The notes below the pieces were generated by a model. The model saw only the letters and a list, made by a program, of their open reading frames with translations, was not told the origin of the DNA and searched no databases. Of a stretch of DNA of 43,652 nt, positions 6,285-40,894 are shown piece after piece; position 1 is the first letter of the stretch; the number at the start of each line of letters is the position of its first letter. The stretch comes from Thermodesulfobacteriota bacterium. Its GTDB lineage: Bacteria > Desulfobacterota > Desulfobulbia > Desulfobulbales > DAOVYS01. The stretch spans positions 1 through 43,652 of the forward strand of contig JAYEGR010000049.1 in assembly GCA_034659175.1 (NCBI GenBank). Direction: 5' to 3'. The translations under genes were made by a program, and so were the position numbers.

Positions 6285-6286
6285 AT

Positions 6287-12803: not shown

Positions 12804-13002
12804 GTAAATATTCGGCTTTATGCCGGAAAACAGCTAGAACCACCAAATTGTAAATGTTTGGCAGCGCTTCACAGGGAGGTGAGCAGGCTGATCAGCAGAT
12901 AAGCGCAGACTTCGATACTTTGGTATGCTGGGCAGCCTGATCGCCTTCCTGTGGAGTGCTGCCGAATATTTACCTTCCTGTGGAGTGTTGTCGAATATTT
13001 AC
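12804..13002 (-). mobile_element. MITE-like element, family A, copy A3 (long-loop variant with duplicated end)
   Basis: TIRs GTAAATATTCGGC / GCCGAATATTTAC. The last 29 nt are tandemly repeated (CTTCCTGTGGAGTGTTGTCGAATATTTAC). Perfect 8-bp direct repeat CTGACTTT at 12796-12803 and 13003-13010. Confidence 0.88.
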
Positions 13003-17537: not shown

Positions 17538-17669
17538 GTAAACGTTCACAGGTGCTGTAGCTGTGCGTGATCAGGGCAATCAGCTATAGTCAACCTATGC
17601 TGGTTGCCCTGATCACGCGCAGGTAAGCGAGCCTGCGAGACTCCGGATGCAGTGCCTGTGGACGTTTGC
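17538..17669 (+). mobile_element. palindromic MITE-like element, family B, copy B1
   Basis: Outer arms GTAAACGTTCACAGGTGC / GCAGTGCCTGTGGACGTTTGC. Inner arms GTGCGTGATCAGGGC / GCCCTGATCACGCGC around a CTATAGTCAACCTATG centre. Asymmetric module GCAGGTAAGCGAGCCTGCGAGACTCCGG. Related copies at 33456-33587 and 40745-40894. Confidence 0.8.
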
Positions 17670-23325: not shown

Positions 23326-23376
23326 TATTTTCGTAAAGGTAGTTATACCTCTTCAAGGGGGTACTGAAAATAGTCC

Positions 23377-23494: not shown

Positions 23495-23779
23495 AACATG
23501 GCAAAAAACACTCATCCTTGGGATAACCTATTGTTTTTTATGGTAATTGTCTGGCAATATGAGTATGTCTATCCGGAATTAATTCGTCCGATTAATAAGA
23601 TTTTCGTCATATTTTTGACTCTTCCGGGAGTCGATGACATTTGATTTTATCAATGTTATGGGTTCCTGGTTAGATTGATGAAAAGCGCAAAACGACCAAT
23701 CTTGAACCATACAACCTTCTTATAGTTGACAATCTACCGTTTTTGTTGCATCTTTATTTAAAAAAGGAGTAAGAATCGC

Positions 23780-24694
23780 ATGTATCTACAACAGCTACTG
23801 ACTATTATTGGCAAAGAAAGAGAAAAGGAACTCCCGACATGCATTACGGATCTGGTTGAAAACGGCCTTTCGCAGGACAGGTTCACTGATGAAGAGTTTA
23901 GACCGGGCCGCCATGAAATAACACTCTTTCTTGCTGCCTGGTGCCGTCGAATCGGCCTGGGGGAGGAGTATTACCGCGATTGGTTGATTGATTACAGCCT
24001 TGATGTTCTGGGGGGCATTTCCACTAGTTCTCCCTCTCAGATTCGTCACAGCACCAAGTCAACCATAAAGTACGTCCATCGTTCCGATGTTGACTTTTCC
24101 TGCCATTGTCAACGCAATATTTTCAAAGCCGTCTGTGGCCCCGACTGCCCACTCTATTGGGAGATGGAGACTCTTCACAAACAGGAACTCGATATAAAGC
24201 GTAAACGGCTTGAAGAGGACAAACGGATCAAGGAAGAGGGCATGCCTGTTCTGGAAAAAGTGAGCGTTAAAGAGCAACATAAGGAGAAATTTGAGAAGGC
24301 GGTCGAGCAGATTCAAAAATATCTTAAAGAAAGCCGAACAAAAAAAGAAATTGTCGATCTTCTCAAGGAAAAAGGATACAAGACCCGTACCGGCCGCGAA
24401 TGGACTACCTCAGTTTTACAAATTTTAATAAAGGAAAAAGGATGGGGTGCGAAACGGCTTAAAAAATCGATTAAATTGACCGTTACACAGCAATATAAGG
24501 AACAATTTGAGGAGGCGGTCAAGCATATTCAAAGATATCTTAAACAAGGCCGAACAAAAAAAGAAATTGCCGACCTTCTTAATGAAAAAGGATACAAGAC
24601 CAGTACAGGCCGTGAATGGAAAGCCAATGGCATCAACATAGCCATGGAAACAGGCGAGTTGAAAGGTAACCGTTCAAAACGTATAACCAAATGA
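23780..24694 (+). CDS. hypothetical protein: Cys-containing N-terminal domain, coiled coil, two tandem recombinase-like HTH repeats
   Basis: AAGGAG RBS at 23764-23769 and a TTGACA box at 23726-23731. A 72-aa (216-nt) internal duplication holds two copies of K..FE.AV..IQ.YLK..RTKKEI.DLL.EKGYKT.TGREW. The N-terminal ~130 aa ends in C-H-C...C-x3-C. Confidence 0.7.
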   Translation: MYLQQLLTIIGKEREKELPTCITDLVENGLSQDRFTDEEFRPGRHEITLFLAAWCRRIGLGEEYYRDWLIDYSLDVLGGISTSSPSQIRHSTKSTIKYVHRSDVDFSCHCQRNIFKAVCGPDCPLYWEMETLHKQELDIKRKRLEEDKRIKEEGMPVLEKVSVKEQHKEKFEKAVEQIQKYLKESRTKKEIVDLLKEKGYKTRTGREWTTSVLQILIKEKGWGAKRLKKSIKLTVTQQYKEQFEEAVKHIQRYLKQGRTKKEIADLLNEKGYKTSTGREWKANGINIAMETGELKGNRSKRITK

Positions 24695-27514
24695 AAAATA
24701 AAGCCTAGCTGGACTTTCGCCTTCCTTTTGATCCAGCTTGATTCCGTAGAGAAAACCTATAGGTCCTATCGGAGTGATGTACCTTAAGCCCCCTCCAACC
24801 GAGGAGCGTAATTCGTTATCCAACCCTGCCTTGTCATACGTTTCAGTCACACGTCCTACATCGTAAAACAGGGTGAGTTCAAAATTGCGGCATAGGTCGA
24901 TTCTTGCCTCCAGGCTTCCATTTATAGCTGTACGCCCCCCCACCGGATCTCTATTTGTATCATAACAGAGCATATTTTTTTCAAACCCGCGCACGTCCGA
25001 GATGCCGCCGAGAAAAAAAAGTTGGTCATCCGGGACGTTATTTTTTGAGTTGAACGGTTCGATGTGACCTACCCGGCCAAGGCACGCAAAGGTCAAAACA
25101 CGCAAGGGAGAAACATACCATCTAAAGTCAATACGGGATTTCAGAAAATCATCAAGAGAATTCGAAGCTCCCTTGGAGATACCGGCGGACAAGGATAAAA
25201 AGACTCCCTTTGCGGGACGGACAAAGGAATCCCTGGTATCGTAGCTGATGGAAGGTGTGGTTAACAGGAGGACTCTTGGTTTTAATTGGTCACTATTATG
25301 TTCAAGCGTCTCTGTTTCCGCCGTTCCTGAATCGCGTATGAATTGATCCCTGTATTCAAAATCAAAATTTAAGCCTGCGGCAAGGTATTGAGACCATTTT
25401 CGGGTAAATCCGAGGGAAGAACCATAGGCCATGGTTCCAAAATTTTGATTGAAATCCTCCTTTTGTTCTAAAAAAAGGCCGATGTCTGCGGAGATCCGTG
25501 AGCCCAGAAGCCTCGGTTCTTTGACTCCCATTTCAGCAAGATAGCCGGTTTGGCTCATCTCCCCTGCCAACCATCCGTCTTTATTTGCTCCAAAAAGATT
25601 ATGATCCCCGGCCTCTGCATTCATAAAAAAACCTTTTTCGCTTTCAAAGCCTCCACCCGCTTCGACAAAGTACGGTTTTTTTTCCTTAAACTCAACAAAG
25701 AGAGTGCTTTTTTCTTTTTTTTCCTTTAGTCCGATGGATTTAAACTGAACTGAGTCAAATATCTCCATATTTCGGAAGTTTTGTTGTGCTTGAACCATTT
25801 GTGTCAGAGAGAACGGGTCCCCCGGCTTTATCTCGATCTCGTTTTCCAGGATTCTTTCCCTGGTTCGAAAGTTGCCCTGATAGTATATCCGCCCTACTGT
25901 CACATATGGTCCTTTATCAACGCTATATATCACTTCGGCCCTGGATTGATCCCGGCTGATCGAGACTTCCCCTTTTACACTGACGTGGGGATAGCCTTTT
26001 TCAGAAACCAGGGAGGACAAGGCATTTTCATCACTTTGAACCATGTACTGCCGAAACGGCGCCCCCTCTTTCAGACGGATGGCTTCACAGGCCTCTTCCT
26101 CCGTGACAACCGTATTACCGCGGATGTCCACTGAAGAGACAAGCGTTTTGACCCCTTCTTCGATTTCGAGCCTGACAGCTACATTTTTTTTATCTTTGCT
26201 CCATGTCACTTTTTTTTTGACCTGTGCGTCCATATATCCTTGCTTGAGATAGAGTGATTTGATCGCAATCATGTCCTTTTCCAGGGTCTCAGGAATATAC
26301 ACACCCTTTTCAAGGAGTCCCGGCAATCGGGTCAGTATCTGTTTGCTTAGATCCTTGTCCTCTATGGCGTTATTTCCCGCAAGCTCGATTGAACGGACAA
26401 TCGAGCCAGGGCCTTCGTCAATAACAAGCCGGATTGCCCTGATGGTCTTGTCGCCATCGGTTTTTGTCTTGGTTTCAATATCTACCTTGGTCTCAAGATA
26501 GCCTGCCATCCTGTATCTATCCTTGATGTTTCCGACACTTTTCTTCAGCCCAAAATCGTTTTTGTTTCCATTATCAAAAAGTGCCATATCTTTTTCCAGG
26601 GTAAAGTCCCAAAACTCGTCATTACCGATAAATTCAATATCATACCGGGCCCCTTCATGAATTGTCACAAAGACTGAAACGCCTCGCCCCTTAACATTTT
26701 GTTCTGTCTTGAAATCGATCAGGACATCCGGGTACTTTTTCCGCCTGTAATATTGGGTCAGGTACTTTATGTCTTTTTTGAGATATTCTTCAATAAACCG
26801 ACCCGGACTTCCAATGAGCAACGATGCGCGCCAAATTTTCATTTTCAGCTTGAGCTTTGTGTCAGAGAATGCCCGATTCCCGGTGAATTCGAGCCGTTCA
26901 AGCGTATCATAAGGGCCTTTGTCGATTTTTACATGAACTACGAAAAAACCATCTGCTGAATCTTTGCCCGCGCTTAAATTAATCTTTGGACCAGGGAACC
27001 CTTCCCGCTGAAAAAGATTTTTAATCAACGCCTCTTGCTCGGACAGTTTCTTTTTAACATAAACGTCACCCGTATAGATGGTCATGTTATTGAGTATTTC
27101 TCGCGCAAAAAGGGGATATTGCCCGCTGATCTTGATGTCTTTGATTAATCGAAACGGAGTCAGGTGGAACATGATCGTGATTTGTTCCTGTTCCTCGACA
27201 GAATCCACATTGATTTTCCTAAATTTTTTAGACAATTTTAGTGCGTCAAGGGACTCTTGAAGGTCAATAGCTGAAAATCGGTCCCCTTTTCGAAGAAAGA
27301 TCAGGCTTTCGGCCATCTCGATCCAATCAGTTTTATCACCGGTAACATCGTGAATATCAACAAGAATTTTAGAGATAACCGGGGCATCAATTGACACAGC
27401 CCAAGAGTCTTTATCGTTTAATAATAATGCATGACCAAAGGCAGCAGACCCTGCAAATATGGACAGAAAACAGATAATAAATAAATTAATTTTAATAATC
27501 CATTTACAATGCAT
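24674..27514 (-). CDS. BamA/TamA-family outer membrane protein assembly factor (multi-POTRA Omp85)
   Basis: Signal peptide MHCKWIIKINLFIICFLSIFAGSAAFG after a GAGGAG RBS, so I use the start at 27514, not 27571. Repeated POTRA-like segments. The C-terminal beta-barrel ends in an aromatic residue (...LYFSFGYTF). Confidence 0.85.
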   Translation of the reverse strand: MHCKWIIKINLFIICFLSIFAGSAAFGHALLLNDKDSWAVSIDAPVISKILVDIHDVTGDKTDWIEMAESLIFLRKGDRFSAIDLQESLDALKLSKKFRKINVDSVEEQEQITIMFHLTPFRLIKDIKISGQYPLFAREILNNMTIYTGDVYVKKKLSEQEALIKNLFQREGFPGPKINLSAGKDSADGFFVVHVKIDKGPYDTLERLEFTGNRAFSDTKLKLKMKIWRASLLIGSPGRFIEEYLKKDIKYLTQYYRRKKYPDVLIDFKTEQNVKGRGVSVFVTIHEGARYDIEFIGNDEFWDFTLEKDMALFDNGNKNDFGLKKSVGNIKDRYRMAGYLETKVDIETKTKTDGDKTIRAIRLVIDEGPGSIVRSIELAGNNAIEDKDLSKQILTRLPGLLEKGVYIPETLEKDMIAIKSLYLKQGYMDAQVKKKVTWSKDKKNVAVRLEIEEGVKTLVSSVDIRGNTVVTEEEACEAIRLKEGAPFRQYMVQSDENALSSLVSEKGYPHVSVKGEVSISRDQSRAEVIYSVDKGPYVTVGRIYYQGNFRTRERILENEIEIKPGDPFSLTQMVQAQQNFRNMEIFDSVQFKSIGLKEKKEKSTLFVEFKEKKPYFVEAGGGFESEKGFFMNAEAGDHNLFGANKDGWLAGEMSQTGYLAEMGVKEPRLLGSRISADIGLFLEQKEDFNQNFGTMAYGSSLGFTRKWSQYLAAGLNFDFEYRDQFIRDSGTAETETLEHNSDQLKPRVLLLTTPSISYDTRDSFVRPAKGVFLSLSAGISKGASNSLDDFLKSRIDFRWYVSPLRVLTFACLGRVGHIEPFNSKNNVPDDQLFFLGGISDVRGFEKNMLCYDTNRDPVGGRTAINGSLEARIDLCRNFELTLFYDVGRVTETYDKAGLDNELRSSVGGGLRYITPIGPIGFLYGIKLDQKEGESPARLYFSFGYTF

Positions 27515-27533
27515 TGCTTGTTTTCTCCTCTGC

Positions 27534-30500
27534 CTAACGAAACTCAAGTCTAAACCGCAAATTTCCACCAAAAACCCCTTTGCTGTCCTGAAATCCGCCT
27601 ATCAGAATATGCTCAAGAAACTTGTATTCCGCAATTGCACGTTGACTTATTTCACCGTCCTCCATTTCCGTGGCGTATTTGACAGTTAGCCGCCTGGAAA
27701 GATTCTCACCGACCGTTATTTTGATGTTTTCTAAGGGTTCTTCATCCGTCTGAGTTTTGGTTTCCACCTCCAGAATATCAAGACCTGTAACGTCCTGGAT
27801 ATCCTCTCCGAATGTTGAGAAAATGAGCTCGGAAAGCATTTGAGTTGTAGTCTGAGATGCGCCTCCTTCCCCTTCAATAAGCTCATGCGTGGTTTTGCCA
27901 AAGACCAGGAGAGACAGGATGTCACCGTCTGTTTCCAATGGATCGGATGTGAGCTTAAAGACAAGCTGATCGAGCGCGCCGGAGATATTCAAATATATCA
28001 ACCAGTCTCTAATTTGAGTTTCACTTTTTATATCCAGGATCGGTTCGGTCTTGTAGGGATTCACAAAATCTATGGCCCCCCTTTTGACCACAAAGGTCTT
28101 TTGCTTATATTCGATTTTTCCGGATTCAATCTCGGCCCGGCCGCTGATGACCGGATTGTTCAGGTCTCCTGTAATGTGAAGATCAGGAGCAATCTCCAGA
28201 TGGGCGAGATTGTTGTCAACTATAAAGGGGTGCCGGTGTTTGACCGAGATGTCCATGGTTGTATTTTTGAGAAAGGGTTGCGTGAACTTCGTCGGCAGCG
28301 GTGCCTCTTCACGCTTTTTCTTTTGAACCGCATGGATTAGGTTCAAGTCCACATCCCTGTAATATGTCCCTTCAAGGATAACAATTTCTCCCTGAATTGT
28401 CGATTTATCCCGAGTTCCGCAAATCTTGAGTTCGGTGTTCAAGAGCATATCCACTGTGTCTGGAACTTGCAGGGGAAGCGCATTCGCGTTTACGTTCATA
28501 ATGACCTTGACAGGCTGAAAGGCCTTAAGGTCGATCTTGCCTGCCAAGTCAAACCGGCCGGCATCCAACCGGCCCTTAATCGGATCGACTGTAATGGTAT
28601 GTGAATTAAGGTGAATTCGACCGTTAAGATCGTGGATTTTCTGCAGGAGCGTGGGAACCGTAAATGCGATTTTTTCCAGCGCTATCTCGGCCTGGATATC
28701 CGGATGAGCATGGGTCCCTCCAATGGTGGCGGACAGGGCAAGGTCGCCTGTGGCATCAGAAAAACCCTCAACGAATAAACCCGCCGCCTCCAAAGGGATG
28801 CGCCCCTCCATCTGAAGGGCGAGCGGGCCGTTAAGTGTCCCTGTGCCTTTTATATCGATCTCACCTTTTTTGAAAAGAAAAAGGTGAGATAAAGGGATCG
28901 TGATCGTGTCCTTATCTAGAAAAATTTTGAGATTTTGGGCGTGGACAATCTCTTTGTCTTTGAAAAAAAGGGCCAGTTTCGAAAGATCCAGCGAGGCTTT
29001 CACATGATCCATTGATTTCACGTTTCCACCGGCTTTAATTTTTCCTGTCAGGGTAGCTTTTATATCCGGTTGATTTGCGATCTTAAAGTAAGGGGAAAGG
29101 TCGGTTTCATTAAATAAAATGGAGGCTGAGAAGTCCTTTTTAAAGACATGTATCCATCCCGCTCCATTAAAGGCAGACCCCTGGTTACAAATGGCAATTT
29201 GTGAAACCCGTAATATTCCCGCCTTATCCAGGCCGGCATTCAACCGGACTTTTCCGATCTTTATTTCTCGGAAACAAAGATCGTCTCCCTTTAGAACAAA
29301 ATCAAGAACCGGCTGTTTTATTGAGCCGGAAACATTGCCTTTTAATCCGAGTTTCCCATGGGCTTTTTGTACACCAATAGATGACAAAATACCGGTAATG
29401 CTTGGGGCGTCCAATGTGAGTGTTGCACCCAGTTCTTCGGAAGAGAGATCAATATGGCCGTTTGTCTGAAATTTGATGTCACCTGTTTCCACCACAAGGT
29501 CTTTGAGTGTTGCAACCCCTTGATTCAGGCTTGCCTCTGACTTCAGATGCACATCAATTGGAGCGGTGCCCGGACCGGCGGTGAAGTTTGTTACAGAAAG
29601 CTCCATTCCAATTCTTGCAGACAGGGTTTGAGGAGAAATTCCTTTTCCACAGACAGATAGAGATGACTGAACAATCCCTTCAACCGGTTTGACACCAGGG
29701 AACAACTCTTCAAGCCTTATTTTTTTTTGTCTTATAAAGGCATTGTACGATACGGCTTTCAGATCTCTTTGCGGGTCAAGAAATCCGTTCTTAAAGGCGT
29801 CTCGCAAATCTATTTCTCCTTGTATATTGAGATCTCCTGAAGCCACATGTGCCTGCAATTTGTTGAGGGTAAGGAATCGATTCAAAAGTCGGCAATCGAG
29901 GTCGATCCCGTCAACCTGTTGTCCTGAAATGATGCCTCCTCCGTAGGAAAGGCGCCATATAACCTGTGGATTATCCAGCGCGCCCCGGGCGTTCAATTGC
30001 ATTTCAACCTGACCTGTTGACATCGGTTTCAGACAAACGGCTTGTTGTATTTCGGCAAGAGAGGCGGAAAGGTCGAGTGTGAGGTCCATAATGGGCTTAT
30101 TAAAAACATCTCCTATGTTCCCGTATAGTGTAATCTCAGAAGATGTGGCGCCTGAGCACAAAACAAGGGGGTCGATCCGGCCATCCTTGAGCGTTGCCTT
30201 TAATTTAAACCGGTCGAATTCGGTTTGGATTTCAGAACCCTTCAAATGTCCTTTGCCAATGCAAAACAGGAGATTTCCCGATCGTTTCAAGAAATCCCCG
30301 TCAGCAGCGAGATCAATGTTGTCTGCCGAGGCATTTAGATTTTCAGCAACTGACTCAAAATGGACGGAACCTTGCACAAGTTTGAGGGACTTAAAAACAA
30401 TGTTGAAAGGGAACCCCATGCCTTTTTCCCTTTTTGTTTTTTGTCCCGTGGCCTTTGAAGCAGGAAATGCGCGCATCAGATTGATTTTGTTTTTTTTGTC

Positions 30501-30848
30501 CACGCGAATCGTGGCCCAGGGTTTCTCAATAATCAGAGTTCCAATCGTGAGTTCTCCCTTGAAGAGTGTGGGCCAAGTGAAATCGACAAAAAAACGATCG
30601 CAACCCGCCATATCTTTACCAAACGGATCCTTAAGCAACATACGCCTTAACTCGAACTCGCCTTTCAGTAATGAAAAATGAAGTCCTTCACATAAAACCG
30701 CGCCGGGAATCAGGTCGTTGACTCTATCCTGGATAAGACGCCGGGCATGATCCGTTTTCATGTAGGACAGGATTCCAATAAACAGAAAAAGGATCAGACC
30801 AAAGAGGATTACTGTGCCAACGAAAATTTGTTTGATGCGTCTCGTCAT
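27534..30848 (-). CDS. TamB-like translocation and assembly module protein (DUF490/AsmA-like)
   Basis: 1104 aa. N-terminal signal anchor, long beta-rich repetitive body, C-terminal DUF490-like region. Immediately upstream of the Omp85 gene. Confidence 0.8.
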   Translation of the reverse strand: MTRRIKQIFVGTVILFGLILFLFIGILSYMKTDHARRLIQDRVNDLIPGAVLCEGLHFSLLKGEFELRRMLLKDPFGKDMAGCDRFFVDFTWPTLFKGELTIGTLIIEKPWATIRVDKKNKINLMRAFPASKATGQKTKREKGMGFPFNIVFKSLKLVQGSVHFESVAENLNASADNIDLAADGDFLKRSGNLLFCIGKGHLKGSEIQTEFDRFKLKATLKDGRIDPLVLCSGATSSEITLYGNIGDVFNKPIMDLTLDLSASLAEIQQAVCLKPMSTGQVEMQLNARGALDNPQVIWRLSYGGGIISGQQVDGIDLDCRLLNRFLTLNKLQAHVASGDLNIQGEIDLRDAFKNGFLDPQRDLKAVSYNAFIRQKKIRLEELFPGVKPVEGIVQSSLSVCGKGISPQTLSARIGMELSVTNFTAGPGTAPIDVHLKSEASLNQGVATLKDLVVETGDIKFQTNGHIDLSSEELGATLTLDAPSITGILSSIGVQKAHGKLGLKGNVSGSIKQPVLDFVLKGDDLCFREIKIGKVRLNAGLDKAGILRVSQIAICNQGSAFNGAGWIHVFKKDFSASILFNETDLSPYFKIANQPDIKATLTGKIKAGGNVKSMDHVKASLDLSKLALFFKDKEIVHAQNLKIFLDKDTITIPLSHLFLFKKGEIDIKGTGTLNGPLALQMEGRIPLEAAGLFVEGFSDATGDLALSATIGGTHAHPDIQAEIALEKIAFTVPTLLQKIHDLNGRIHLNSHTITVDPIKGRLDAGRFDLAGKIDLKAFQPVKVIMNVNANALPLQVPDTVDMLLNTELKICGTRDKSTIQGEIVILEGTYYRDVDLNLIHAVQKKKREEAPLPTKFTQPFLKNTTMDISVKHRHPFIVDNNLAHLEIAPDLHITGDLNNPVISGRAEIESGKIEYKQKTFVVKRGAIDFVNPYKTEPILDIKSETQIRDWLIYLNISGALDQLVFKLTSDPLETDGDILSLLVFGKTTHELIEGEGGASQTTTQMLSELIFSTFGEDIQDVTGLDILEVETKTQTDEEPLENIKITVGENLSRRLTVKYATEMEDGEISQRAIAEYKFLEHILIGGFQDSKGVFGGNLRFRLEFR

Positions 30849-30966
30849 AAAATTATCTGTTGTCCATTAAAAAACATTGGTAACCGGTCAGAAAGGGGTC
30901 AGTAATTTAGCGATGTGGACGAACCCTAACCCAGATAAACTGGAATTCTTTAAAGGTCCTGGATAA

Positions 30967-31021
30967 GTACCTTAGAAAATATTTTCTGCCAGAAACGCGC
31001 AGAAAATATTTTCTAAGGTAC
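30967..31021. promoter_or_regulatory. perfect 23-bp-arm palindrome carrying two AGAAAATATTTTCT sites
   Basis: GTACCTTAGAAAATATTTTCTGC (30967-30989), a 9-nt spacer, then GCAGAAAATATTTTCTAAGGTAC (30999-31021). Each arm contains the self-complementary 14-mer AGAAAATATTTTCT. Confidence 0.7.
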
Positions 31022-31542
31022 TAAGCGCTAACAGTTGTTTAAGTGGATTACCCTCAGTAATCCGCGACAAACCAGAAAAATTAACCTTGCTCCTCCTGAT
31101 TTGAAACAGGCTGATTTTTTTGATAAAAATCGACCACGAGAAATACCGGAGAGCCAATATGATTGCTGCAATACTCAGTTGCACCGGTATATCAAAGGGT
31201 TGAGCAATTATTTATGCCATACTTTTTCATTTTTCAAAAGAAATTTTTTTTAACCGTTCAGAGGGGCACCCTTTGAACGGTTACGTTCAAGCTGTCCCGA
31301 GTCTGTCGGCGTAAAGAAAGCTCTTGGCAAGCGCCCTTAGTATTGATATTGTGCAATACAAAAAAGGTAATCGTTCCCCTGCGTCTCATTAATTCCTGCA
31401 TTAGTTTCTGTTTGCTTACAGCATTTAAATTTCAAAAATTGATAATTGATCTCAAACAGGAAGCCCTAACCCGGAGGGCGCTATGTTCTCCGGGTTAGGC
31501 GAATAGTCGGTTTAAGTTTGTATTTTTAAAGGAGCAAGGAAC

Positions 31543-33459
31543 ATGGCAAAAACAGTAACAGAAAAAATATTAAAAAATCACCTGGTTGAGGGTCGTATGG
31601 AAAAAGGTGAAGAGATCGGCATCCGCATTGATCAGACCCTGACCCAGGATGCCACAGGCACTATGGCCTATCTTGAATTTGAAGCAATCTCCATTCCAAG
31701 AGTTCAGACCGAGCTGTCGGTCTCTTATGTGGACCATAATCTGGTTCAGTCTGATTTCAGGAATGGTGACGACCATCGGTTCCTTCAATCCGTTGCCCGG
31801 AAATATGGTCTCTACTTTTCTCCCCCCGGGAACGGCATTTCCCACCAGATCCACCTGGAAAGATTCGGCAGGCCCGGCAGGACTCTCTTAGGTTCCGACA
31901 GTCATACTCCCACAGGCGGAGGTCTCGGCATGCTTGCAATAGGCGCCGGAGGGCTCGATGTGGCCATGGCAATGGCCGGAAAGCCATTCTTCATGATAAT
32001 GCCGAAGGTCTATGGCGTTAAACTGACCGGCCGATTGCCGGAATGGGTGTCAGCCCGGGACGTGCTTCTCGAACTGCTCAGGCAACTCTCCGTCAAGGGC
32101 GGTGTAGGATATGTCATGGAATATTTCGGCCCAGGCGTTAAAGAGTTATCTGTAACAGACCGGGCGGCCATAACCAACTTCGGTGCTGAACTGGGTGCCA
32201 CCACTTCGGTGTTTCCGTCGGACGAGAACACTAAAAAATTTCTGGAAAGTCAGGGACGGGGCGGCCTGTGGGAAGAGCTTGCAGCTGATGAAGGCGCCTG
32301 TTATGACAAGGTGATTGAGATTGATATGTCCACACTGGAACCGCTTATCGCCTGTCCCTCATCTCCGGATAACGTGGTAAAGGTCCGGGAAGTGGCCGGT
32401 AAGCCCGTGTTTCAGGTGCTGGTGGGCTCATGCTCCAATTCATCGTTGCGTGATCTGATGCTTGTCTCCAAGGCGCTGGATGGTAAACAGGTACACAATG
32501 ACGTGAGTTTCGAAATCAACCCGGGCAGCCGCCAGGTACTGGAAAACCTTACGGCCCAGGGATACATGCTCTCTCTGATCAAGGCCGGCGCCCGCATCCA
32601 TCAGGCAGGCTGCCTGGGATGTATTGGAATGGGACAGGCGCCGGCCACGGATACAATTTCACTAAGGACCTTTCCCCGGAATTTTCCCGGCCGCAGCGGG
32701 ACCAAAGACGACCGGGTTTATTTATGCAGTCCTGAAACCGCGGTTGCGTCGGCGCTCAAGGGGTGCATCACGGATCCGCGTGATCTGGGTGTATACCCTG
32801 AATTCAGTCTGCCTGAGAAGTATCTGCCCGGTGATCAACGGATCGAACCGCCGAAATCAGAGGGTGAAAGTACCATGATCATCCGTGGACCGAATATAGC
32901 GTCCTTCCCTGAGTTTGATCCTGTCCCCGAAACATGGGAAGGCACAGTGCTGTTAAAGACAGCGGATAATATTACTACTGATCACATCATGCCGGCAGGC
33001 GCTCAGATACTTCCGCTCAGGAGCAATATTCCAGCTATCAGTGAATTTGTATTTAACTCCATTGACCGGGAATTTGTTCAGCGGGCAAAGAGAGCAAGCA
33101 GCGGTATGGTTGTGGGAGGTGAGAACTATGGTCAGGGATCATCCAGGGAGCATGCCGCACTGGCACCGCGTTATCTTGGAGTGCGCGTAAAACTGGTCAA
33201 GAGCTTTGCACGCATTCATAAGGCAAATCTGATCAATTTCGGCATCCTGCCGTTTACCTTTACATCGGCTGAAGACTACGACATAATCGAGCAGGGTGCA
33301 AAGGCGGTTATTCCGGATCTAAGAAAAAATCTTGAATCCGGGGCAGAGGTCTTTGTGTTGGATGTAGCCGGCAATAAAATTAAAATCAGCCTGGATATCT
33401 CCACACGGCATCGTGAGATACTACTGGCAGGCGGTCTCCTGAACTGGGCAAGACAGTAA
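31543..33459 (+). CDS. aconitate hydratase (short ~640-aa aconitase family member)
   Basis: 638 aa. Aconitase catalytic and swivel domains with Fe-S Cys contexts (VGSCSNSS, GCLGCIGMG). GGAGCAAGG RBS region upstream. Confidence 0.9.
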   Translation: MAKTVTEKILKNHLVEGRMEKGEEIGIRIDQTLTQDATGTMAYLEFEAISIPRVQTELSVSYVDHNLVQSDFRNGDDHRFLQSVARKYGLYFSPPGNGISHQIHLERFGRPGRTLLGSDSHTPTGGGLGMLAIGAGGLDVAMAMAGKPFFMIMPKVYGVKLTGRLPEWVSARDVLLELLRQLSVKGGVGYVMEYFGPGVKELSVTDRAAITNFGAELGATTSVFPSDENTKKFLESQGRGGLWEELAADEGACYDKVIEIDMSTLEPLIACPSSPDNVVKVREVAGKPVFQVLVGSCSNSSLRDLMLVSKALDGKQVHNDVSFEINPGSRQVLENLTAQGYMLSLIKAGARIHQAGCLGCIGMGQAPATDTISLRTFPRNFPGRSGTKDDRVYLCSPETAVASALKGCITDPRDLGVYPEFSLPEKYLPGDQRIEPPKSEGESTMIIRGPNIASFPEFDPVPETWEGTVLLKTADNITTDHIMPAGAQILPLRSNIPAISEFVFNSIDREFVQRAKRASSGMVVGGENYGQGSSREHAALAPRYLGVRVKLVKSFARIHKANLINFGILPFTFTSAEDYDIIEQGAKAVIPDLRKNLESGAEVFVLDVAGNKIKISLDISTRHREILLAGGLLNWARQ

Positions 33460-33587
33460 AGGGCCACAGTCGGCGCATCCGGAGTCTCGCAGGCTCGCTT
33501 ACCTGCACGTGATCAGGGCGACCGGTATAGGTTACTATAACCGGGTCGCCCTGATCACGCACACCTGCACCGACTGTGGCCCTTTAC
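33456..33587 (-). mobile_element. palindromic MITE-like element, family B, copy B2
   Basis: Perfect 18-bp termini GTAAAGGGCCACAGTCGG / CCGACTGTGGCCCTTTAC. Inner GTGATCAGGGCGACC...GGTCGCCCTGATCAC hairpin. The CCGGAGTCTCGCAGGCTCGCTTACCTGC module is inverted relative to B1. The aconitase TAA stop (33457-33459) lies inside the terminus. Confidence 0.85.
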
Positions 33588-33658
33588 CTCTGAACCCGGC
33601 GGGTATAATTTTTTGTACTTTTTTATCTCTGGTTTCCTTGTCGATCTGATAAGTAACT

Positions 33659-33822
33659 TTAGGGCTCGCACAAAAATAACTTCACATTTTCATGCGCCGA
33701 TCCATCCCGCATGGCTGCGTTGCTCGTCGGTTAAATAGCCCTGCTATTCGCCCTTCTCGCGCCTTGCCATGCGGGCGCCTCAACACCTGAAAATATAAAT
33801 TTATTTTTGGGCGAACCCTTAA
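33659..33822. mobile_element. third palindromic repeat element (family E) with ~55-nt imperfect inverted termini
   Basis: The left end TTAGGGCTCGCACAAAAATAACTTCACATTTTCA...CCCGCATGGC pairs with the right end GCCATGCGGG...TGAAAATATAAATTTATTTTTGGGCGAACCCTTAA. A 20-nt copy of the terminus (TTAGGGCTCGCTCAAAAATA) occurs at 11156-11175. Confidence 0.6.
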
Positions 33823-34033
33823 ATCAAGGGGATAAATTTGGTTTATAGTGTGTACAGAAAAAATTGGTCGTGTATCCGGCTGATTTTGCCTGGAAAGGTG
33901 ATAGGTTGGGCAGAAATTGATTTGTACAGTAAAAAAAATTGTATTTTAGGTGGTGTGGAGAGAGGGGTTATTGTCTTTGGTAATTTGTTGGTATTACTGG
34001 AATTTTTCTGGATTTCGAGCTTTTTTAGGGGTT

Positions 34034-34049
34034 TGGCACGCAGTTTGCA
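34034..34049 (+). promoter_or_regulatory. sigma54 (-24/-12) promoter
   Basis: TGGCAC-GCAGT-TTGCA, an exact match to TGGCAC-N5-TTGCW. Two TGTACAG+A-tract boxes lie upstream at 33851-33857 and 33923-33929. Confidence 0.7.
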
Positions 34050-34059
34050 ATATTACATG

Positions 34060-34134
34060 TTCAAAGAGAACAAAACTCTTTTCTCCTATTTTTTGTAAAA
34101 AAGCCGACTTTGCGCCCCCAAGGTCGGCTTTTTT
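34060..34134 (+). ncRNA. candidate ~75-nt sigma54-dependent small RNA (or terminated leader of the DUF362 gene)
   Basis: Predicted TSS ~12 nt after the -12 GC. 5' hairpin AAAGAG-aacaaaa-CTCTTT (34063-34081). Single-stranded U/C-rich UCUCCUAUUUUUU. Then an intrinsic terminator. No convincing ORF. Confidence 0.4.
34097..34134 (+). terminator. intrinsic (rho-independent) terminator, potentially bidirectional
   Basis: AAAAAA-GCCGACUUU / loop GCGCCCCC / AAGGUCGGC-UUUUUU. About 9 bp of stem, flanked by an A-tract and a U-tract. Confidence 0.75.
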
Positions 34135-34241
34135 ATGTTCAGGGCAGAATTTCAGGCATTCCCATGCTGGTTGTAACCATCCATTCTTAATTTCCGGCAG
34201 GAGCATTACTCGTTTGGTCAGAGCTAAAAAAATAGCAAAGA

Positions 34242-34277
34242 GATTAACCTTGATTAACCTTTGAACCTTGAACCTCA
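34242..34277. repeat. short AACCT/GAACCT direct repeats
   Basis: GATTAACCT TGATTAACCT TTGAACCT TGAACCT, immediately upstream of the DUF362 gene. Confidence 0.45.
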
Positions 34278-34290
34278 GCGGTTACGTTTT

Positions 34291-35244
34291 ATGGAAATCA
34301 AGGACAATAAAGTAGCCATACTCCGTTGCCCCACGTATGAGCGAGATTCGCTTAAAATGGCAGTGGACGGGATTTGTCGAGCAATAGATTTTCAGATTAC
34401 GCCTGGCTGCGGGGTGCTTTTAAAACCTAATCTTGTTACGGCAAGGAGCCCGGACGGCCTGGCATGCACTAATCCATGTTTTGTGGCGGCAGTTGCTGAA
34501 TGGTTTCTGGATCATGGGGCACGTGTCAGTGTGGGGGATTCACCCGCTTTCGGGAGTAGTAAAAAGGTGATGAAGGCATGCGGCCATGAGAATGCCCTTA
34601 AGAAACTGCCTGTAAACCTGGTTGATCTTTCCTTACCCGAACGTGTGGACCTGCCTTGCGGCGATTCCATCGGGATCTCAAGGACAGCGCTTGAATCCGA
34701 TCTTTTAATAAACCTGCCAAGGATCAAGGCGCACAGTCAGCTTCTTGTCACAATGGCAGTGAAGAACTATTTCGGGACAGTGGTCGGCGGCAGAAAAGCA
34801 TGGCTTCATCTGAAATATGGTGATGAAACAGACAGGTTCGGGCAGGTACTTGTGGATCTTCTTGCAGTACTTCCCGAAGGTATTACACTTGTGGACGCCG
34901 TCACCGCAGTCCATGGGGAAAGTCATATCACGGGAAAATCCTATCATCTCGGACTGGCGGCCGGTTCGAGGAATCCTGTTGCCATAGATACGTCGTTTCT
35001 GTCTATTCTCGGGATTGATGCGGACCAAAGTCTGCTCTGGAAGGAGTGCTCAAAACAGGGGCTTTTAGGCAGCAGGGTTCAGGATATCATCTATCCCCTG
35101 CTTTCTCCGGAAGAGGTCAAAGTAGATGATTTTCAAGTACGTTCACAATTAAACCCCATAAGCTTCCGGCCGAAAAGATTAATCATCGGCGGGTTAAAAC
35201 GGCTTGCAGCCAGGATCCTGCCCGGCATTAATAGAAAGTTATGA
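34291..35244 (+). CDS. DUF362 domain protein
   Basis: VLLKPNLV...ACTNPCFVAAVAEWFLDHGARVSVGDSP... matches my memory of DUF362. ATG at 34291 (MEIKDNK) preferred to the TTG at 34261. Confidence 0.7.
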   Translation: MEIKDNKVAILRCPTYERDSLKMAVDGICRAIDFQITPGCGVLLKPNLVTARSPDGLACTNPCFVAAVAEWFLDHGARVSVGDSPAFGSSKKVMKACGHENALKKLPVNLVDLSLPERVDLPCGDSIGISRTALESDLLINLPRIKAHSQLLVTMAVKNYFGTVVGGRKAWLHLKYGDETDRFGQVLVDLLAVLPEGITLVDAVTAVHGESHITGKSYHLGLAAGSRNPVAIDTSFLSILGIDADQSLLWKECSKQGLLGSRVQDIIYPLLSPEEVKVDDFQVRSQLNPISFRPKRLIIGGLKRLAARILPGINRKL

Positions 35245-35852
35245 TGTTTAGAACGACCGGAAGGTTGATACTGGCGTCCTCCTCTCCTCGGCGGCGCCGG
35301 TTGTTAGGTGACCTGGGACTCAATTTCGAGATCATTACGGCAGATGTTGATGAACGGCCTGTTTTTGAGGAGACGCCCTCTGAATTCGTATCTCGGATAT
35401 CCTTGGAAAAGTGTATGAGCGTATCATCCGTTTGCCTGGACGGCACAATTCTGGGAGCTGACACGGTAGTCGTTCTGGATGGAGAGATTCTTGGAAAGCC
35501 TGCTGACAGAGAGTCGGCAAAGGCCATGTTGAAACGGTTGTCAGGCAGATGGCACGAGGTCTGGACAGGCTTTTGCATCTTTAATCGGAGTCAGGCGGTC
35601 ACGGTGCAGCGGGTGGTAAAGACCGATGTTCTCTTTTCCCGGCTGACGGATAAGGTCTGCGATGCCTACGTGAAGACCGGTGAACCTATGGATAAGGCCG
35701 GCGCATACGGCATCCAGGGTGTTGGCGGCGTATTTGTGGAAAGGATAAGAGGATCGTACTCCAATGTGGTCGGACTGCCGCTGGCAGAGGTGGTAAAGGA
35801 ATTGGAAAGCCTGTGTGTAATTACTCCGGCTGATGAGTCGCCTAATCCGTAA
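35241..35852 (+). CDS. maf: Maf-like nucleoside triphosphate pyrophosphatase
   Basis: LILASSSPRRRRLL, GADTVVVLDGEILGKP, DKAGAYGIQG motifs. ATGA overlap with the preceding gene. Confidence 0.92.
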   Translation: MMFRTTGRLILASSSPRRRRLLGDLGLNFEIITADVDERPVFEETPSEFVSRISLEKCMSVSSVCLDGTILGADTVVVLDGEILGKPADRESAKAMLKRLSGRWHEVWTGFCIFNRSQAVTVQRVVKTDVLFSRLTDKVCDAYVKTGEPMDKAGAYGIQGVGGVFVERIRGSYSNVVGLPLAEVVKELESLCVITPADESPNP

Positions 35853-35860: not shown

Positions 35861-37291
35861 CTATTCACAATCGGTCCTTACAAAGTCTGCCGCGAACAGT
35901 GCGAGATCACTTCCGTCTAAGTCACGATCCTTGTCAAAATCCCCTTCGCAATCCTCTCCGGTATCGCAATCCGTCCAGCCAAAGTCCGCTGCAAAAACAG
36001 CTAAGTCCGAATCATCTACATCACCGTCTCTGTTGAAATCTCCAATGCAGAGTTCCGGGTTAATGGACGTTTCAATACGGTCTGTTACCACAGAGGAACC
36101 GTAAGCCCGTACTTCTATGACATGAGGTCCGGGTATTGAAGCCGAAGCATTCCAAAACCCTTGCCACACCGGGGTATCGTTCACCTGCTCCATTTCATGC
36201 CAGTCTCCTCCCTCATCAATCCGAAACTCCACACCAACAACGGTTTTTTTGTCAAAGACAAGGGCGCGTATAGGATTTCCAGGACTCCGGGGGACTTCAT
36301 ATGCAAAGGGATTTGACTGGTTTCCCATGCTCTGATCTACAGGAGCCGTTATCAGGACGACCGGCCATGTCCCTTTATCAGCAGGCACAACGGACAGGCC
36401 GTTTCCGTCAACAGCCATGATCGCATAATGATCCTGTCCAGATTTTCCAAGGGATGCCACATTCAAATAGAAAACACCCTGAAAAAGGGTGTCGTAATAA
36501 AAATTTTCCCGGTAATCATGGGTATGGCCGAATCCGTATTGAGAAACACCGTAATCGTCTATTAGATAGAGGAGAGACTCTAAACCGTATGTAAGTCCCG
36601 TGTCTGTCCAGGTCGAATAGCCGGCATAAAAAGGATGATGCCCAAATATCAGCGTAAGCTCCGCATCAGGATGATTTATCAATTGGGACTCAATAAAAGC
36701 CAGCTCGCCTTGATCAAGCCCTGCATGGTCGCCGAAGTTGTCACCCGGCCAGATGCTGAAAGGGGCCCCATCGTTTCCTGCCGTGCAGACACCGAGAAAA
36801 TGATAACTGCCAAAGGGAAAGTTTCGTACCCATGAGGACTGAGTAGAACCGGAGGCGCTTCCCTGGATTGAATTAGCAAGGTGGTAAGCAAAATCCGCAT
36901 CATTATAAGCATCATGGTTGCCTGGAATATCAAAATAAAACGTTGCATCAATACCGGCTGCGTCGAGTATCCGCCTGTACAGGTCCCACTCTTCCTGATA
37001 GGGACCGTTGGGGATGACGCCACCGTTGGTAGAATCCGTCAAGTCCCCGGCATTCACTATAAAAAGGGGGGCGATCACTTCCCTGGCCTCATTCACGGCC
37101 CAGGTCAGGTAGTCTGTTTCCTGACCGCCTTCGGTTCCTATGTGGGAATCGGATATGATCATGAACCAGAAAAGCCGGTCACTGCTCCAGTGGTAATAAG
37201 CGCCGAGGGGATTTCCGGCAATGGATAAAAGAGGAAGAATGAAGATAATAAGAGATATAAGAAGGGGTTGAAAGAAGAATCTTTTTTTCAC
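35861..37291 (-). CDS. secreted calcineurin-like metallophosphoesterase with C-terminal dockerin-like repeats
   Basis: Signal peptide. Metallophosphoesterase motifs ISDSHIG, AGDLTD, GNHD, GHHP, GHTH. The C-terminus has two repeats of DFNRDGDVDDSDLAVFAADFG / DFDKDRDLDGSDLALFAADF. Confidence 0.85.
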   Translation of the reverse strand: MKKRFFFQPLLISLIIFILPLLSIAGNPLGAYYHWSSDRLFWFMIISDSHIGTEGGQETDYLTWAVNEAREVIAPLFIVNAGDLTDSTNGGVIPNGPYQEEWDLYRRILDAAGIDATFYFDIPGNHDAYNDADFAYHLANSIQGSASGSTQSSWVRNFPFGSYHFLGVCTAGNDGAPFSIWPGDNFGDHAGLDQGELAFIESQLINHPDAELTLIFGHHPFYAGYSTWTDTGLTYGLESLLYLIDDYGVSQYGFGHTHDYRENFYYDTLFQGVFYLNVASLGKSGQDHYAIMAVDGNGLSVVPADKGTWPVVLITAPVDQSMGNQSNPFAYEVPRSPGNPIRALVFDKKTVVGVEFRIDEGGDWHEMEQVNDTPVWQGFWNASASIPGPHVIEVRAYGSSVVTDRIETSINPELCIGDFNRDGDVDDSDLAVFAADFGWTDCDTGEDCEGDFDKDRDLDGSDLALFAADFVRTDCE

Positions 37292-37818: not shown

Positions 37819-38085
37819 AATTCCTTTTTTTTAGTACCTTAGAAAATATTATCGGAAAGTACTTATACCATGATTGCAGTTACATTTTTCGTAATTTTAT
37901 TCCGGATTTACGGAAAAATAGAGATGTTTTGATTATGTTAGTATGTGGCGAATATTAGCCTAACAAGTTGCAATTGCGGAAACAAATCAAGCGCATAGGG
38001 AAAATGGAATGAATTTTGCAGTTTAACTGTATCAATGGACGATTTTTATGTATTGTGAATAAAATAGCGACAACAATTCTGATTA

Positions 38086-40744: not shown

Positions 40745-40894
40745 GTAATCGTTCACAGGTGCCCCAGATGTGCACCCTGAAGGGCATAAACTCCAGCAGG
40801 CCGGCGAACTATAGTAAACCTATGTGAGTCGGACTGATCGCGTGCAGGTAAGCGAGACTGCGAGACTCCGGGTGGGGTGCCTGTGAACGATTCC
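40745..40894 (+). mobile_element. palindromic MITE-like element, family B, copy B3 (degenerate inner arm)
   Basis: Termini GTAATCGTTCACAGGTGCCCC / GGGGTGCCTGTGAACGATTCC. Central CTATAGTAAACCTATG. Module GCAGGTAAGCGAGACTGCGAGACTCCGG in the same orientation as B1. Confidence 0.8.

What the first reader, a model, noticed from the sequence alone, without database searches (positions are those of the whole stretch)
34034..34134. Perfect sigma54 promoter followed ~50 nt later by an intrinsic terminator: a candidate ~75-nt sigma54-dependent sRNA
TGGCAC-GCAGT-TTGCA (34034-34049) is an exact -24/-12 consensus. The predicted transcript (from ~34060) has three parts: a 6-bp hairpin (AAAGAG/CUCUUU), a single-stranded UCUCCUAUUUUUU stretch complementary to Shine-Dalgarno sequences, and a 9-bp GC-rich terminator with a U6 tail ending at 34134. 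This is the typical build of a trans-acting, Hfq-type sRNA. Known sigma54-dependent sRNAs, such as Vibrio Qrr and Myxococcus Pxr, have the same promoter logic. Two TGTACAG+A-tract boxes at 33851 and 33923 sit at plausible enhancer distances of about -185 and -110. The overlapping 86- and 104-aa ORFs look non-coding. The alternative is a terminated leader (attenuator) for the DUF362 gene, which starts 157 nt downstream.
Basis: partly seen in the sequence, partly recalled or inferred. Interest (0 to 1): 0.65.

Follow-up and report, generated by a model that had tools for sequence, protein, structure and literature searches.

The report
Candidate sigma-54-driven small RNA gene
A perfect sigma-54 promoter followed about 75 bases later by a strong terminator is kept letter-for-letter in related uncultured marine-sediment sulfate-reducer-like bacteria while its flanks drift freely, so it is most likely a small regulatory RNA gene of a known kind, although no RNA evidence exists.

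Summary
TGGCACGCAGTTTGCA (34034-34049) is the only exact -24/-12 match in the window (0.06 expected). A strong intrinsic terminator ends at 34134.

The new evidence is comparative. In three lineages and about ten metagenome populations, constraint starts at 34061 and stops at 34134. These are the predicted +1 and the last U of the tail. Inside that span there are no substitutions against L002 or L030; all differences across every population examined are listed in the full report. Third-codon identity is 75% and 93%. The upstream 190-212 nt is 85-88% identical. At least six different sequences follow the terminator.

The terminator is ancestral. Distant relatives carry a homologous hairpin between aconitase and DUF362 with no sigma-54 promoter. 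The promoter block is a lineage-specific insertion upstream of it.

Not supported: the 5' hairpin (z -0.14) and the TGTACAG "enhancer" boxes (not conserved). No antiterminator exists. Metatranscriptome contigs are uninformative.

In most strains the DUF362 start codon lies only 28 nt after the terminator, so read-through into DUF362-maf stays a live rival.

Verdict: a well-supported but unproven new member of the sigma-54-dependent sRNA class.

The parts
34034..34049 (+). Sigma-54 (-24/-12) promoter TGGCACGCAGTTTGCA
   Evidence: Only exact consensus match in the window, 0.06 expected. In L002, L018-20 and L030 it differs only at spacer position 34042.
34060..34134 (+). Predicted ~75-nt non-coding transcript (+1 inferred at 34060 +/-3; 3' end in the U6 tail)
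   Evidence: No substitutions in 34061-34134 against L002 (third-codon identity 75%) or L030 (93%). Only two 1-nt indels in L002. DNA-run strains add only A34072G and +A after 34087; a low-depth X26 contig adds T34081A and T34093C. No Rfam family matches.
34063..34081 (+). Weak 5' hairpin AAAGAG / loop AACAAAA / CUCUUU
   Evidence: Predicted in the MFE fold but not significant alone (z -0.14). The two changes in DNA-run strains and in L002 fall in the loop (34072, indel at 34071); T34081A in a low-depth X26 contig hits the last base of the 3' arm.
34082..34096 (+). Single-stranded pyrimidine-rich stretch UCUCCUAUUUUUUGU; UCUCCU is complementary to AGGAGA
   Evidence: Unpaired in the MFE and centroid folds. 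UCUCCU is invariant. Small indels occur only after it (34087, 34092).
34097..34134 (+). Intrinsic terminator: A6, 10-bp GC-rich stem (34103-34128), loop CGCCCC, U6
   Evidence: -20.8 kcal/mol, z -5.1. A homologous hairpin sits 35-40 nt before the DUF362 ATG in L021, L022 and L023, which lack the promoter.
33822..34033 (+).
   Evidence: 85% identical to L002 and 88% to L030, which is no better than synonymous sites for L030. About 40 variable sites among strains. No shared enhancer motif found.
34135..34290 (+). Hypervariable spacer between the terminator and DUF362
   Evidence: At least six different continuations begin at 34139-34155 in close relatives. The commonest is 34155+TACCTTA+ATG, leaving 28 nt to the start codon.
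34291..35852 (+). DUF362 (34291-35244) and maf (35241-35852), possible recipients of read-through
   Evidence: Pfam PF04015 and PF02545. The order aconitase-DUF362-(SDR)-maf is conserved in relatives.
31543..33459 (+). Aconitase gene, whose ancestral downstream terminator the unit re-uses
   Evidence: Pfam PF00330/PF00694. The aconitase-DUF362 gap is 25-145 nt in distant relatives, against 831 nt here.

Best explanation
The unit is a lineage-specific small-RNA gene.

RNA polymerase carrying sigma-54 binds the exact -24/-12 element at 34034-34049. When an enhancer-binding protein, not yet identified, activates it, transcription starts at about 34060. Most of it stops at the strong intrinsic terminator, giving a non-coding RNA of about 75 nt.

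The RNA has an essentially unstructured A/U/C-rich 5' half containing CUCUUUUCUCCU, followed by a terminator hairpin with a U6 tail. It most likely base-pairs through the pyrimidine stretch with purine-rich ribosome-binding regions of mRNAs made elsewhere.

The gene arose when a block of about 375 nt carrying the promoter was inserted upstream of a terminator that already stood between aconitase and DUF362. A minor read-through fraction probably also feeds DUF362-maf.

Shown: the promoter match, the terminator, the non-coding status, the selective constraint limited to promoter plus transcript, and the ancestry of the terminator. Inferred: promoter activity, the start site, a discrete RNA, and action in trans through the anti-Shine-Dalgarno stretch.
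For: - Exact promoter, 0.06 expected by chance.
- Sigma-54 machinery and other sigma-54 promoters in the same genome. An enhancer-binding-protein gene lies at 7714-9321, and fliL has a near-consensus promoter that is exact in L002.
- Constraint has sharp edges. Against L002, substitutions occur at 34042, 34051, 34056 and 34060. None occur in 34061-34134. They resume at 34135 and 34136. Third-codon identity is 74-75%, and P(<=1 change in 75) is 1e-8.
- L030 shows 0 changes in the transcript, against 12% divergence upstream and 7% at third-codon positions.
- Strains in eight DNA metagenome runs (X1, X3, X5, X6, X8, X9, X10, X15) have about 40 variable sites in 33839-34033. From 34060 to 34134 they show only T34060C, A34072G in the loop and one inserted A; a low-depth contig of the doubtful-RNA run X26 adds T34081A and T34093C.
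- Runs hold 63% of the unit's sampled 31-mers, against 27-49% for the surrounding 1.2 kb.
- The terminator is strong.
- The unit is non-coding. The tiny ATG34057 ORF is frameshifted in L002, and substitutions show no codon periodicity.
- The promoter sits upstream of a strong terminator, which is a poor way to drive DUF362.
- Precedent exists in sulfate reducers (PMC3333781, PMC4045070).
Against: - No expression evidence. True metatranscriptomes cover this organism at depth 2-14 and show nothing over 33967-34268.
- Runs X25 and X26 look like DNA. Their contigs cross both the promoter and the terminator.
- No conserved enhancer site was found, and no activator gene lies next to the unit.
- The unit was found only in one narrow clade. 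Relatives with 55-59% identical DUF362 lack the promoter.
- The terminator predates the promoter. In most strains the DUF362 ATG lies 28-37 nt after it, so read-through transcripts must exist.
- The 5' hairpin is not significant.
- Target prediction within the window is not significant. The best partner is the fliL ribosome-binding region at -17.9 kcal/mol, and 11.5% of shuffled seeds do as well.
Confidence: 0.5

Rival explanations
1. The sigma-54 promoter is the promoter of DUF362-maf. The 75 nt is its 5' leader, and the terminator is a constitutive, leaky attenuator. The short RNA is then a by-product.
For: - Aconitase-DUF362-(SDR)-maf is an operon-like block in all relatives, with 25-145 nt gaps.
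- The insertions here cut DUF362 off from the aconitase promoter.
- In the commonest strain form the ATG is 28 nt after the U-tail (37 nt in L030). That leaves no room for another promoter.
- In L021-23 the same terminator stands 35-40 nt before the ATG, so read-through must already express DUF362 there.
- An X25 contig runs from the terminator into DUF362.
Against: - No alternative antiterminator fold exists. The best fold without the 3' arm is -4.6 kcal/mol.
- The terminator is strong.
- Constraint stops at the last U, and the rest of the supposed leader is hypervariable, with 28-200 nt indels.
- A promoter for DUF362 would be expected after the terminator, not before it.
- In the dominant strain of run X1 the sequence after 34139 is unrelated and is not the DUF362 start.
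Confidence: 0.25
2. The hairpin is only the terminator of aconitase or other upstream transcripts, as in the ancestors. The sigma-54 match is silent or a holoenzyme-binding site with no productive RNA.
For: - The terminator is ancestral and homologous in promoter-less relatives.
- X25 contigs cross the promoter at a depth similar to the body.
- No enhancer site was identified.
Against: - This does not explain why the 45 nt between +1 and the terminator are invariant while the 190 nt upstream drift neutrally.
- It does not explain why both promoter hexamers are intact in every lineage.
- A chance exact match is expected 0.06 times per window.
Confidence: 0.12
3. The whole conserved block, from a TATAAT-containing 29-mer at 33601-33629 to 34134, is one longer non-coding RNA. 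It would be about 360 nt without the inserted repeat. The 74 nt would be its conserved 3' domain, possibly released by processing.
For: - The 29-mer GGGTATAATTTTTTGTACTTTTTTATCTC is 100% identical between the window and L002.
- L002 has TTGAAC 18 nt upstream of that TATAAT.
- No terminator lies between it and 34134.
Against: - The window lacks a matching -35 element, and the promoter scan does not call a site.
- A 165-nt repeat element is inserted in the middle in the window.
- The interior evolves at about the neutral rate.
- The constraint boundary falls on the sigma-54 +1, not on any structural domain edge.
- L030 differs upstream of about 33845.
Confidence: 0.06

Closest known systems
Sigma-54-dependent sRNAs of sulfate-reducing Desulfovibrio: Dv_sRNA2, the target of response regulator DVU0679 (PMC3333781), and two unannotated RpoN-promoter sRNAs in D. 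alaskensis G20 (PMC4045070)
   Same: A short non-coding transcript in an intergenic region, driven by a -24/-12 promoter, in a sulfate-reducer-type bacterium whose genome is rich in sigma-54 regulation.
   Different: - Those RNAs have expression or start-site data, and Dv_sRNA2 has a mapped activator encoded next to it. Here there is neither.
- Sequence relatedness was not tested, because their sequences were not at hand.
- The organism here is an uncultured marine-sediment or cold-seep lineage. Its DUF362 relatives are labelled Desulfobulbales or Desulfobulbaceae.
Vibrio Qrr1-5 and Myxococcus Pxr (from my own knowledge)
   Same: Sigma-54 promoter logic, an RNA of about 75-110 nt ending in an intrinsic terminator, and a conserved single-stranded seed.
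   Different: - No match to any Rfam model, even at E<=5.
- Qrr has four stem-loops and lies beside luxO, and Pxr has three stem-loops. Here the only significant structure is the terminator.
- No adjacent regulator gene.
sRNAs that re-use the terminator of an upstream gene and have their own promoter, such as Salmonella DapZ and E. coli MicL (from my own knowledge)
   Same: The 3' end and terminator belong ancestrally to the upstream coding gene, here aconitase. A separate stress-type promoter just upstream creates an independent short RNA.
   Different: - In those cases the promoter lies inside the coding sequence. Here it arrived with a non-coding insertion of about 375 nt between the stop codon and the terminator.
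- The sigma factor is sigma-54.
Intercistronic or leader terminators (attenuators)
   Same: A strong hairpin with a U-tract lies 28-40 nt before the start codon of the next gene in an operon-like array.
   Different: No competing antiterminator structure, leader peptide or known riboswitch was found. The tiny ORF is not conserved.

Membership tests
Sigma-54-dependent sRNA (functional class) | -24/-12 promoter (TGGCAC-N5-TTGCW) correctly oriented upstream of the RNA | tested here: met
   Exact match at 34034-34049, 0.06 expected. Both hexamers are intact in L002, L018-20, L030 and all strains.
Sigma-54-dependent sRNA (functional class) | Enhancer-binding-protein site upstream, or an activator gene | tested here: inconclusive
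   An enhancer-binding-protein gene exists 25 kb away. No conserved dyad or box lies in -30 to -240, and the TGTACAG boxes vary.
Sigma-54-dependent sRNA (functional class) | A discrete short transcript that depends on rpoN | not testable with these tools
   Only assembled contigs of low-coverage metatranscriptomes are available. They show nothing over the locus, or are indistinguishable from DNA.
Sigma-54-dependent sRNA (functional class) | Non-coding, ends at an intrinsic terminator, and conserved more than its flanks | tested here: met
Qrr (Rfam) / Pxr (Rfam) | Match to the family covariance model | tested here: not met
   No hit at gathering score or at E<=5 over 33400-34350. The best hit is the unrelated STnc370, 30 bits against 54 required.
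Hfq-type trans-acting sRNA | Terminator hairpin with a U-tail, preceded by a U-rich single strand and a seed | tested here: met
   U6 tail, UAUUUUUUGU before the hairpin, invariant CUCUUUUCUCCU. Presence of Hfq and any binding were not testable.
Hfq-type trans-acting sRNA | Identifiable mRNA targets with better-than-chance complementarity | tested here: inconclusive
   Tested on 36 start regions in the window. The best is fliL at -17.9 kcal/mol, and 11.5% of shuffled seeds do as well. No whole genome was available.
Regulated transcription attenuator / riboswitch leader | Mutually exclusive terminator and antiterminator folds, or a known aptamer | tested here: not met
   The best alternative fold is -4.6 kcal/mol against -24.6. 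No Rfam aptamer matches.

The most novel reading that the evidence does not exclude
This would be a traceable, recent birth of a regulatory RNA gene. An insertion carrying a sigma-54 promoter landed in front of an older terminator inside the aconitase-DUF362-maf operon.

That event created a 75-nt RNA that came under very strong purifying selection, sharp to the nucleotide at +1 and at the last U. The same event re-wired DUF362-maf to sigma-54 control through terminator read-through. One promoter would then give a trans-acting sRNA and, at low level, an mRNA.
Probability: 0.3. Interest if true: 0.55.

Novelty: new member of a known kind. Interest (0 to 1): 0.38.

Why it matters
If confirmed, this adds a sigma-54-controlled sRNA to an abundant, uncultured lineage of marine-sediment and cold-seep bacteria for which no RNA regulators are known.

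It would also be a clean example of how an sRNA gene arises: a promoter is captured in front of an existing terminator. The ancestral state (terminator only), the derived state, and a constraint footprint that outlines the transcript are all visible in public metagenomes.

In practice, the footprint test used here works on organisms that cannot be grown. It compares variable sites in strain-resolved metagenome contigs with the predicted +1 and 3' end.

The mechanism class itself is well known, so the gain is incremental.

Tried and rejected
- **Rfam.** The whole window at gathering score gave 0 hits. The region 33400-34350 at E<=5 gave only sub-threshold generic hits. L001 gave none. No tRNA or tmRNA was found.
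- **Metagenome contig scan with DUF362.** No useful close locus.
- **Genome contig scan.** Gave L002, plus L001. L001 is a 0.43x-coverage contig binned as Promethearchaeota, with 1.47 kb of AT-rich, ORF-less sequence in place of the unit. I treated it as a rearranged or chimeric contig.
- **Expression.** X25 and X26 are labelled metatranscriptomic ChIP-Seq. They at first seemed to show a 105-nt contig ending at 34135 and zero depth after the terminator. The DNA runs show a similar depth drop after the terminator, and in X1, X5 and X6 a contig end at 34135, caused by strain variation. I rejected this as evidence of termination. The true RNA-Seq runs X27, X30 and X31 have too little of this organism.
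- **Paralogues.** None in the window or the fetched loci. Depth in metagenomes equals that of the flanks, so the unit is single-copy and not mobile.
- **Shared enhancer motif.** I compared the upstream regions with those of the other three sigma-54-like promoters. One 9-mer, ATTGGTCGT, is shared with fliL, with about 0.3 expected by chance, so it is not significant.
- **Leader peptide.** ATG34057 encodes MFKENKTLFSYFL*. It is frameshifted in L002 and lies upstream of +1. ATG34135 is GCG in L002.
- **Sigma-70 promoter for DUF362.** The candidate within or after the terminator is only a 7/12 match and is not conserved in L002 (by eye).
- **Exact aconitase protein look-up.** Not on record.

Full report
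**1. What is in the sequence**

The window carries TGGCACGCAGTTTGCA at 34034-34049 on the + strand. It is the only exact TGGCAC-N5-TTGCW match on either strand. Dinucleotide shuffles give 0.06 matches on average, and 6 of 100 shuffles have any.

With the -12 C at 34048, transcription should start at about 34060. Thirty-seven bases later an A6 tract begins. It is followed by a 10-bp GC-rich stem (34103-34128, -14.7 kcal/mol), a CGCCCC loop and a U6 tail that ends at 34134. With its A/U flanks the hairpin folds at -20.8 kcal/mol, z -5.1. The full 75 nt folds at -24.6 kcal/mol, z -4.96.

The 5' hairpin AAAGAG/CUCUUU appears in the predicted fold. On its own it is no better than chance: -3.6 kcal/mol, z -0.14, and 72 of 200 shuffles fold as well. 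The 5' half is best described as an unstructured A/U/C-rich strand that contains CUCUUUUCUCCUAUUUUUU.

**2. Context and organism**

| Feature | Coordinates | Strand |
|---|---|---|
| Aconitase | 31543-33459 | + |
| DUF362 | 34291-35244 | + |
| Maf | 35241-35852 | + |
| Metallophosphoesterase | 35861-37291 | - |

The window also encodes a sigma-54 activator at 7714-9321. It carries a flagellar cluster running from fliA to fliL.

A one-mismatch sigma-54 site lies at 23494-23479 (-), about 170 nt before fliL. In relative L002 that site is an exact match. The organism therefore uses sigma-54 promoters of this exact form.

Runs that hold the sequence come from marine sediment, cold seeps and brine. 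The named DUF362 relatives at 50-53% identity are labelled Desulfobulbaceae, Desulfobulbales or Thermodesulfobacteriota. The taxonomy is an inference from these labels.

**3. Comparative evidence: the main new result**

Three lineages carry the unit.

| Lineage | DUF362 aa identity to window | Third-codon identity | Upstream block identity | Substitutions in 34061-34134 |
|---|---|---|---|---|
| Window | - | - | - | - |
| L030 | 94% | 93% | 88% | 0 |
| L002 / L018-20 | 84% | 74-75% | 85% | 0 |

The upstream block is 33822-34033 for L002 and 33845-34033 for L030.

- **Window against L002.** The promoter differs only at spacer position 34042. Substitutions then fall at 34051, 34056 and 34060. 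None fall in 34061-34134. They resume at 34135 and 34136, and the sequence becomes unalignable soon after.
- **Indels in L002.** The only differences inside the transcript are two 1-nt insertions, one in the hairpin loop and one in the U-run.
- **Statistics.** The chance of at most one change in 75 nt at the synonymous rate is 1e-8.
- **Window against L030.** The transcript has no change. The upstream block is 12% diverged, which is more than the 7% at third-codon positions.
- **Strain level.** Logan contigs of eight DNA metagenome runs show about 40 variable sites in 33839-34033. From 34060 to 34134 they show only T34060C, A34072G in the loop and one inserted A after 34087.
- **X26 contig.** A low-depth contig of the doubtful-RNA run X26 adds T34081A and T34093C.

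The footprint of selection therefore outlines the two promoter hexamers plus a segment that begins at the predicted +1 and ends at the last U of the terminator tail. Box 2 reads CATGCGG in L002 and is changed at three positions in the dominant strain of run X1.

**4. Origin**

Relatives with 55-59% identical DUF362 keep the order (fliL)-aconitase-DUF362-(SDR)-maf-(glyS). Their aconitase-DUF362 gap is only 25-145 nt.

Three of them (L021, L022, L023) have, 35-40 nt before the DUF362 ATG, a strong terminator whose sequence aligns with the one here:

- Relatives: GCCGTCYTGG...CCARGGCGGCTTTTT
- Window: GCCGACTTTG...CAAGGTCGGCTTTTTT

None of these relatives has a sigma-54 site. The terminator is therefore older than the promoter.

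In the window's clade a block of about 375 nt carrying the promoter was inserted between the aconitase stop codon and that terminator. The window strain has two further repeat-element insertions on top of this.

**5. What lies after the terminator**

At least six different sequences follow 34139-34155 in close relatives:

- the window's 135 nt;
- about 200 nt in L002;
- 37 nt in L030;
- the commonest form, 34155+TACCTTA+ATG, which leaves 28 nt to the start codon;
- a form joining 34144+TAC to 34281;
- unrelated continuations in X1 and in X25/X26.

In the short forms there is no room for a separate DUF362 promoter. Some read-through of the terminator is therefore probably what expresses DUF362-maf, as it must in L021-23. 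This keeps the leader reading alive.

Four points weigh against the leader reading:

- No antiterminator alternative exists. The best fold without the 3' arm is -4.6 kcal/mol.
- Constraint stops at the end of the U-tail.
- A promoter serving DUF362 would be expected downstream of a strong terminator, not upstream of it.
- In the dominant X1 strain, DUF362 does not immediately follow the unit.

**6. Coding potential and known families**

The 86- and 104-aa ORFs and the minus-strand 70-aa ORF have no significant Pfam match. One-nucleotide indels break the frames in L002, and substitutions show no codon periodicity. The 13-codon ORF at ATG34057 is frameshifted in L002.

No Rfam family matches. 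The best hit is STnc370 at 30 bits against 54 required.

**7. Expression**

The evidence here is uninformative.

- X25 and X26 are labelled metatranscriptomic ChIP-Seq. They gave a 105-nt contig at 34031-34135 and zero depth after the terminator.
- DNA runs show a similar depth drop, and X1, X5 and X6 have a contig end at 34135, because strains diverge there.
- The X25 contig also includes the promoter. Another X25 contig runs through the terminator into DUF362.
- True RNA-Seq runs cover this organism's genes at depth 2-14 and show nothing over 33967-34268.
- A 75-nt RNA from a silent-by-default sigma-54 promoter would be missed in such data anyway.

**8. Mechanism and ranking**

| Reading | Confidence |
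|---|---|
| Activator-dependent sigma-54 transcription from about 34060, mostly stopped at 34129-34134. It gives a 75-nt RNA whose invariant pyrimidine stretch pairs with purine-rich ribosome-binding regions. A minor read-through fraction reaches DUF362-maf | 0.5 |
| The promoter serves DUF362-maf and the terminator is a leaky attenuator | 0.25 |
| The terminator only serves upstream transcripts and the sigma-54 site is unproductive | 0.12 |
| A longer RNA starts near the conserved TATAAT 29-mer at 33601-33629 | 0.06 |

Target prediction within the window puts the fliL ribosome-binding region first, at -17.9 kcal/mol. However, 11.5% of shuffled seeds do as well. This is a lead only.

**9. Comparison with known systems, and novelty**

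Sigma-54-dependent sRNAs are established. Examples from my own knowledge are Qrr, Pxr, GlmY, CrcZ and NrsZ. They are also known in sulfate reducers: Dv_sRNA2 under DVU0679 (PMC3333781) and two RpoN-promoter sRNAs in D. alaskensis G20 (PMC4045070).

This unit matches none of the curated models, so it is not a member of Qrr or Pxr. It fits the functional class. Its use of an upstream gene's terminator resembles DapZ and MicL (from my own knowledge).

I rate it a new member of a known kind. It is well supported by comparative data, unproven at the RNA level, and of moderate interest. The interest lies mainly in the traceable origin and the nucleotide-sharp constraint footprint.

Noticed in passing
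window 33658-33822: A 165-nt MITE-like element with 35-nt terminal inverted repeats (fold -55.9 kcal/mol, z -4.5). It is absent from the same site in L002 and L030. Its word depth in sediment metagenomes is 25,000-150,000, against about 40-60 for the flanks. It is also very deep in RNA-Seq contigs (1,800-3,600) and occurs with hundreds of different flanks. TIR-like 20-mers also lie at 974-992 and 11156-11175.
   Followed up: partly
window 33456-33587; copies at 17592-17650 (-) and 40834-40871 (-); L001 2490-2530; L011 403-436: A 132-nt nested, near-perfect hairpin repeat (-89 kcal/mol, z -13.8) that starts at the aconitase stop codon. Its inner part is a multi-copy intergenic repeat, with DNA depth of 1,600-13,000. 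L002 has only the short outer hairpin, followed by TTTTAT, which may be a weak aconitase terminator.
   Followed up: partly
window 34139-34290: The first 5-20 nt after the terminator tail is a hotspot of structural variation. At least six unrelated continuations occur among close strains. The window's own 135-nt version contains AACCTTGA-like tandem repeats and is rare in the metagenomes.
   Followed up: partly
window 23494-23479 (-); L002 937-952 (-): A sigma-54 promoter, TGGCACGAGAATTGCC, lies about 170 nt upstream of fliL-fliM. It is an exact consensus match in L002.
   Followed up: yes
window 9325-9340 (+) and 38005-38020 (+): Two further sigma-54-like sites with 2 mismatches and intact GG/GC. 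One lies just after the enhancer-binding-protein gene (7714-9321) and 108 nt before an unannotated 189-aa ORF. The other lies 81 nt before an unannotated 167-aa ORF.
   Followed up: no
window ~23560-31540: fliL and aconitase are divergent neighbours in L002 and L022-24. In the window about 8 kb separates them. That stretch carries a recombinase-like fragment (23780-24694), an Omp85/POTRA protein (24674-27571, -) and a TamB-like protein (27534-30848, -).
   Followed up: no
window 33601-33629: The 29-mer GGGTATAATTTTTTGTACTTTTTTATCTC is 100% identical between the window and the L002 lineage, inside an otherwise drifting spacer. It may be a sigma-70 -10 region. L002 has TTGAAC 18 nt upstream, while the window lacks a good -35 element.
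   Followed up: partly
L021-L027 (relatives): Relatives carry a short-chain dehydrogenase gene between DUF362 and maf. It is missing in the window, L002 and L029 lineages. The block aconitase-DUF362-(SDR)-maf is widely conserved, which hints at a shared function for DUF362.
   Followed up: no
L001 1-1520: This contig is binned as a Promethearchaeota MAG. It carries a bacterial DUF362-maf (95% identical), preceded by 1.47 kb of AT-rich sequence with no ORF of 60 aa or more and no Rfam hit. It is probably mis-binned, chimeric or a foreign insertion.
   Followed up: partly
window 23300-23330 (-), fliL start region: The listed TTG start of fliL is probably wrong. An ATG five codons downstream follows GGAGAAAC at a proper spacing. 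This ribosome-binding region is the best predicted pairing partner of the candidate RNA in the window, though not significantly so.
   Followed up: partly
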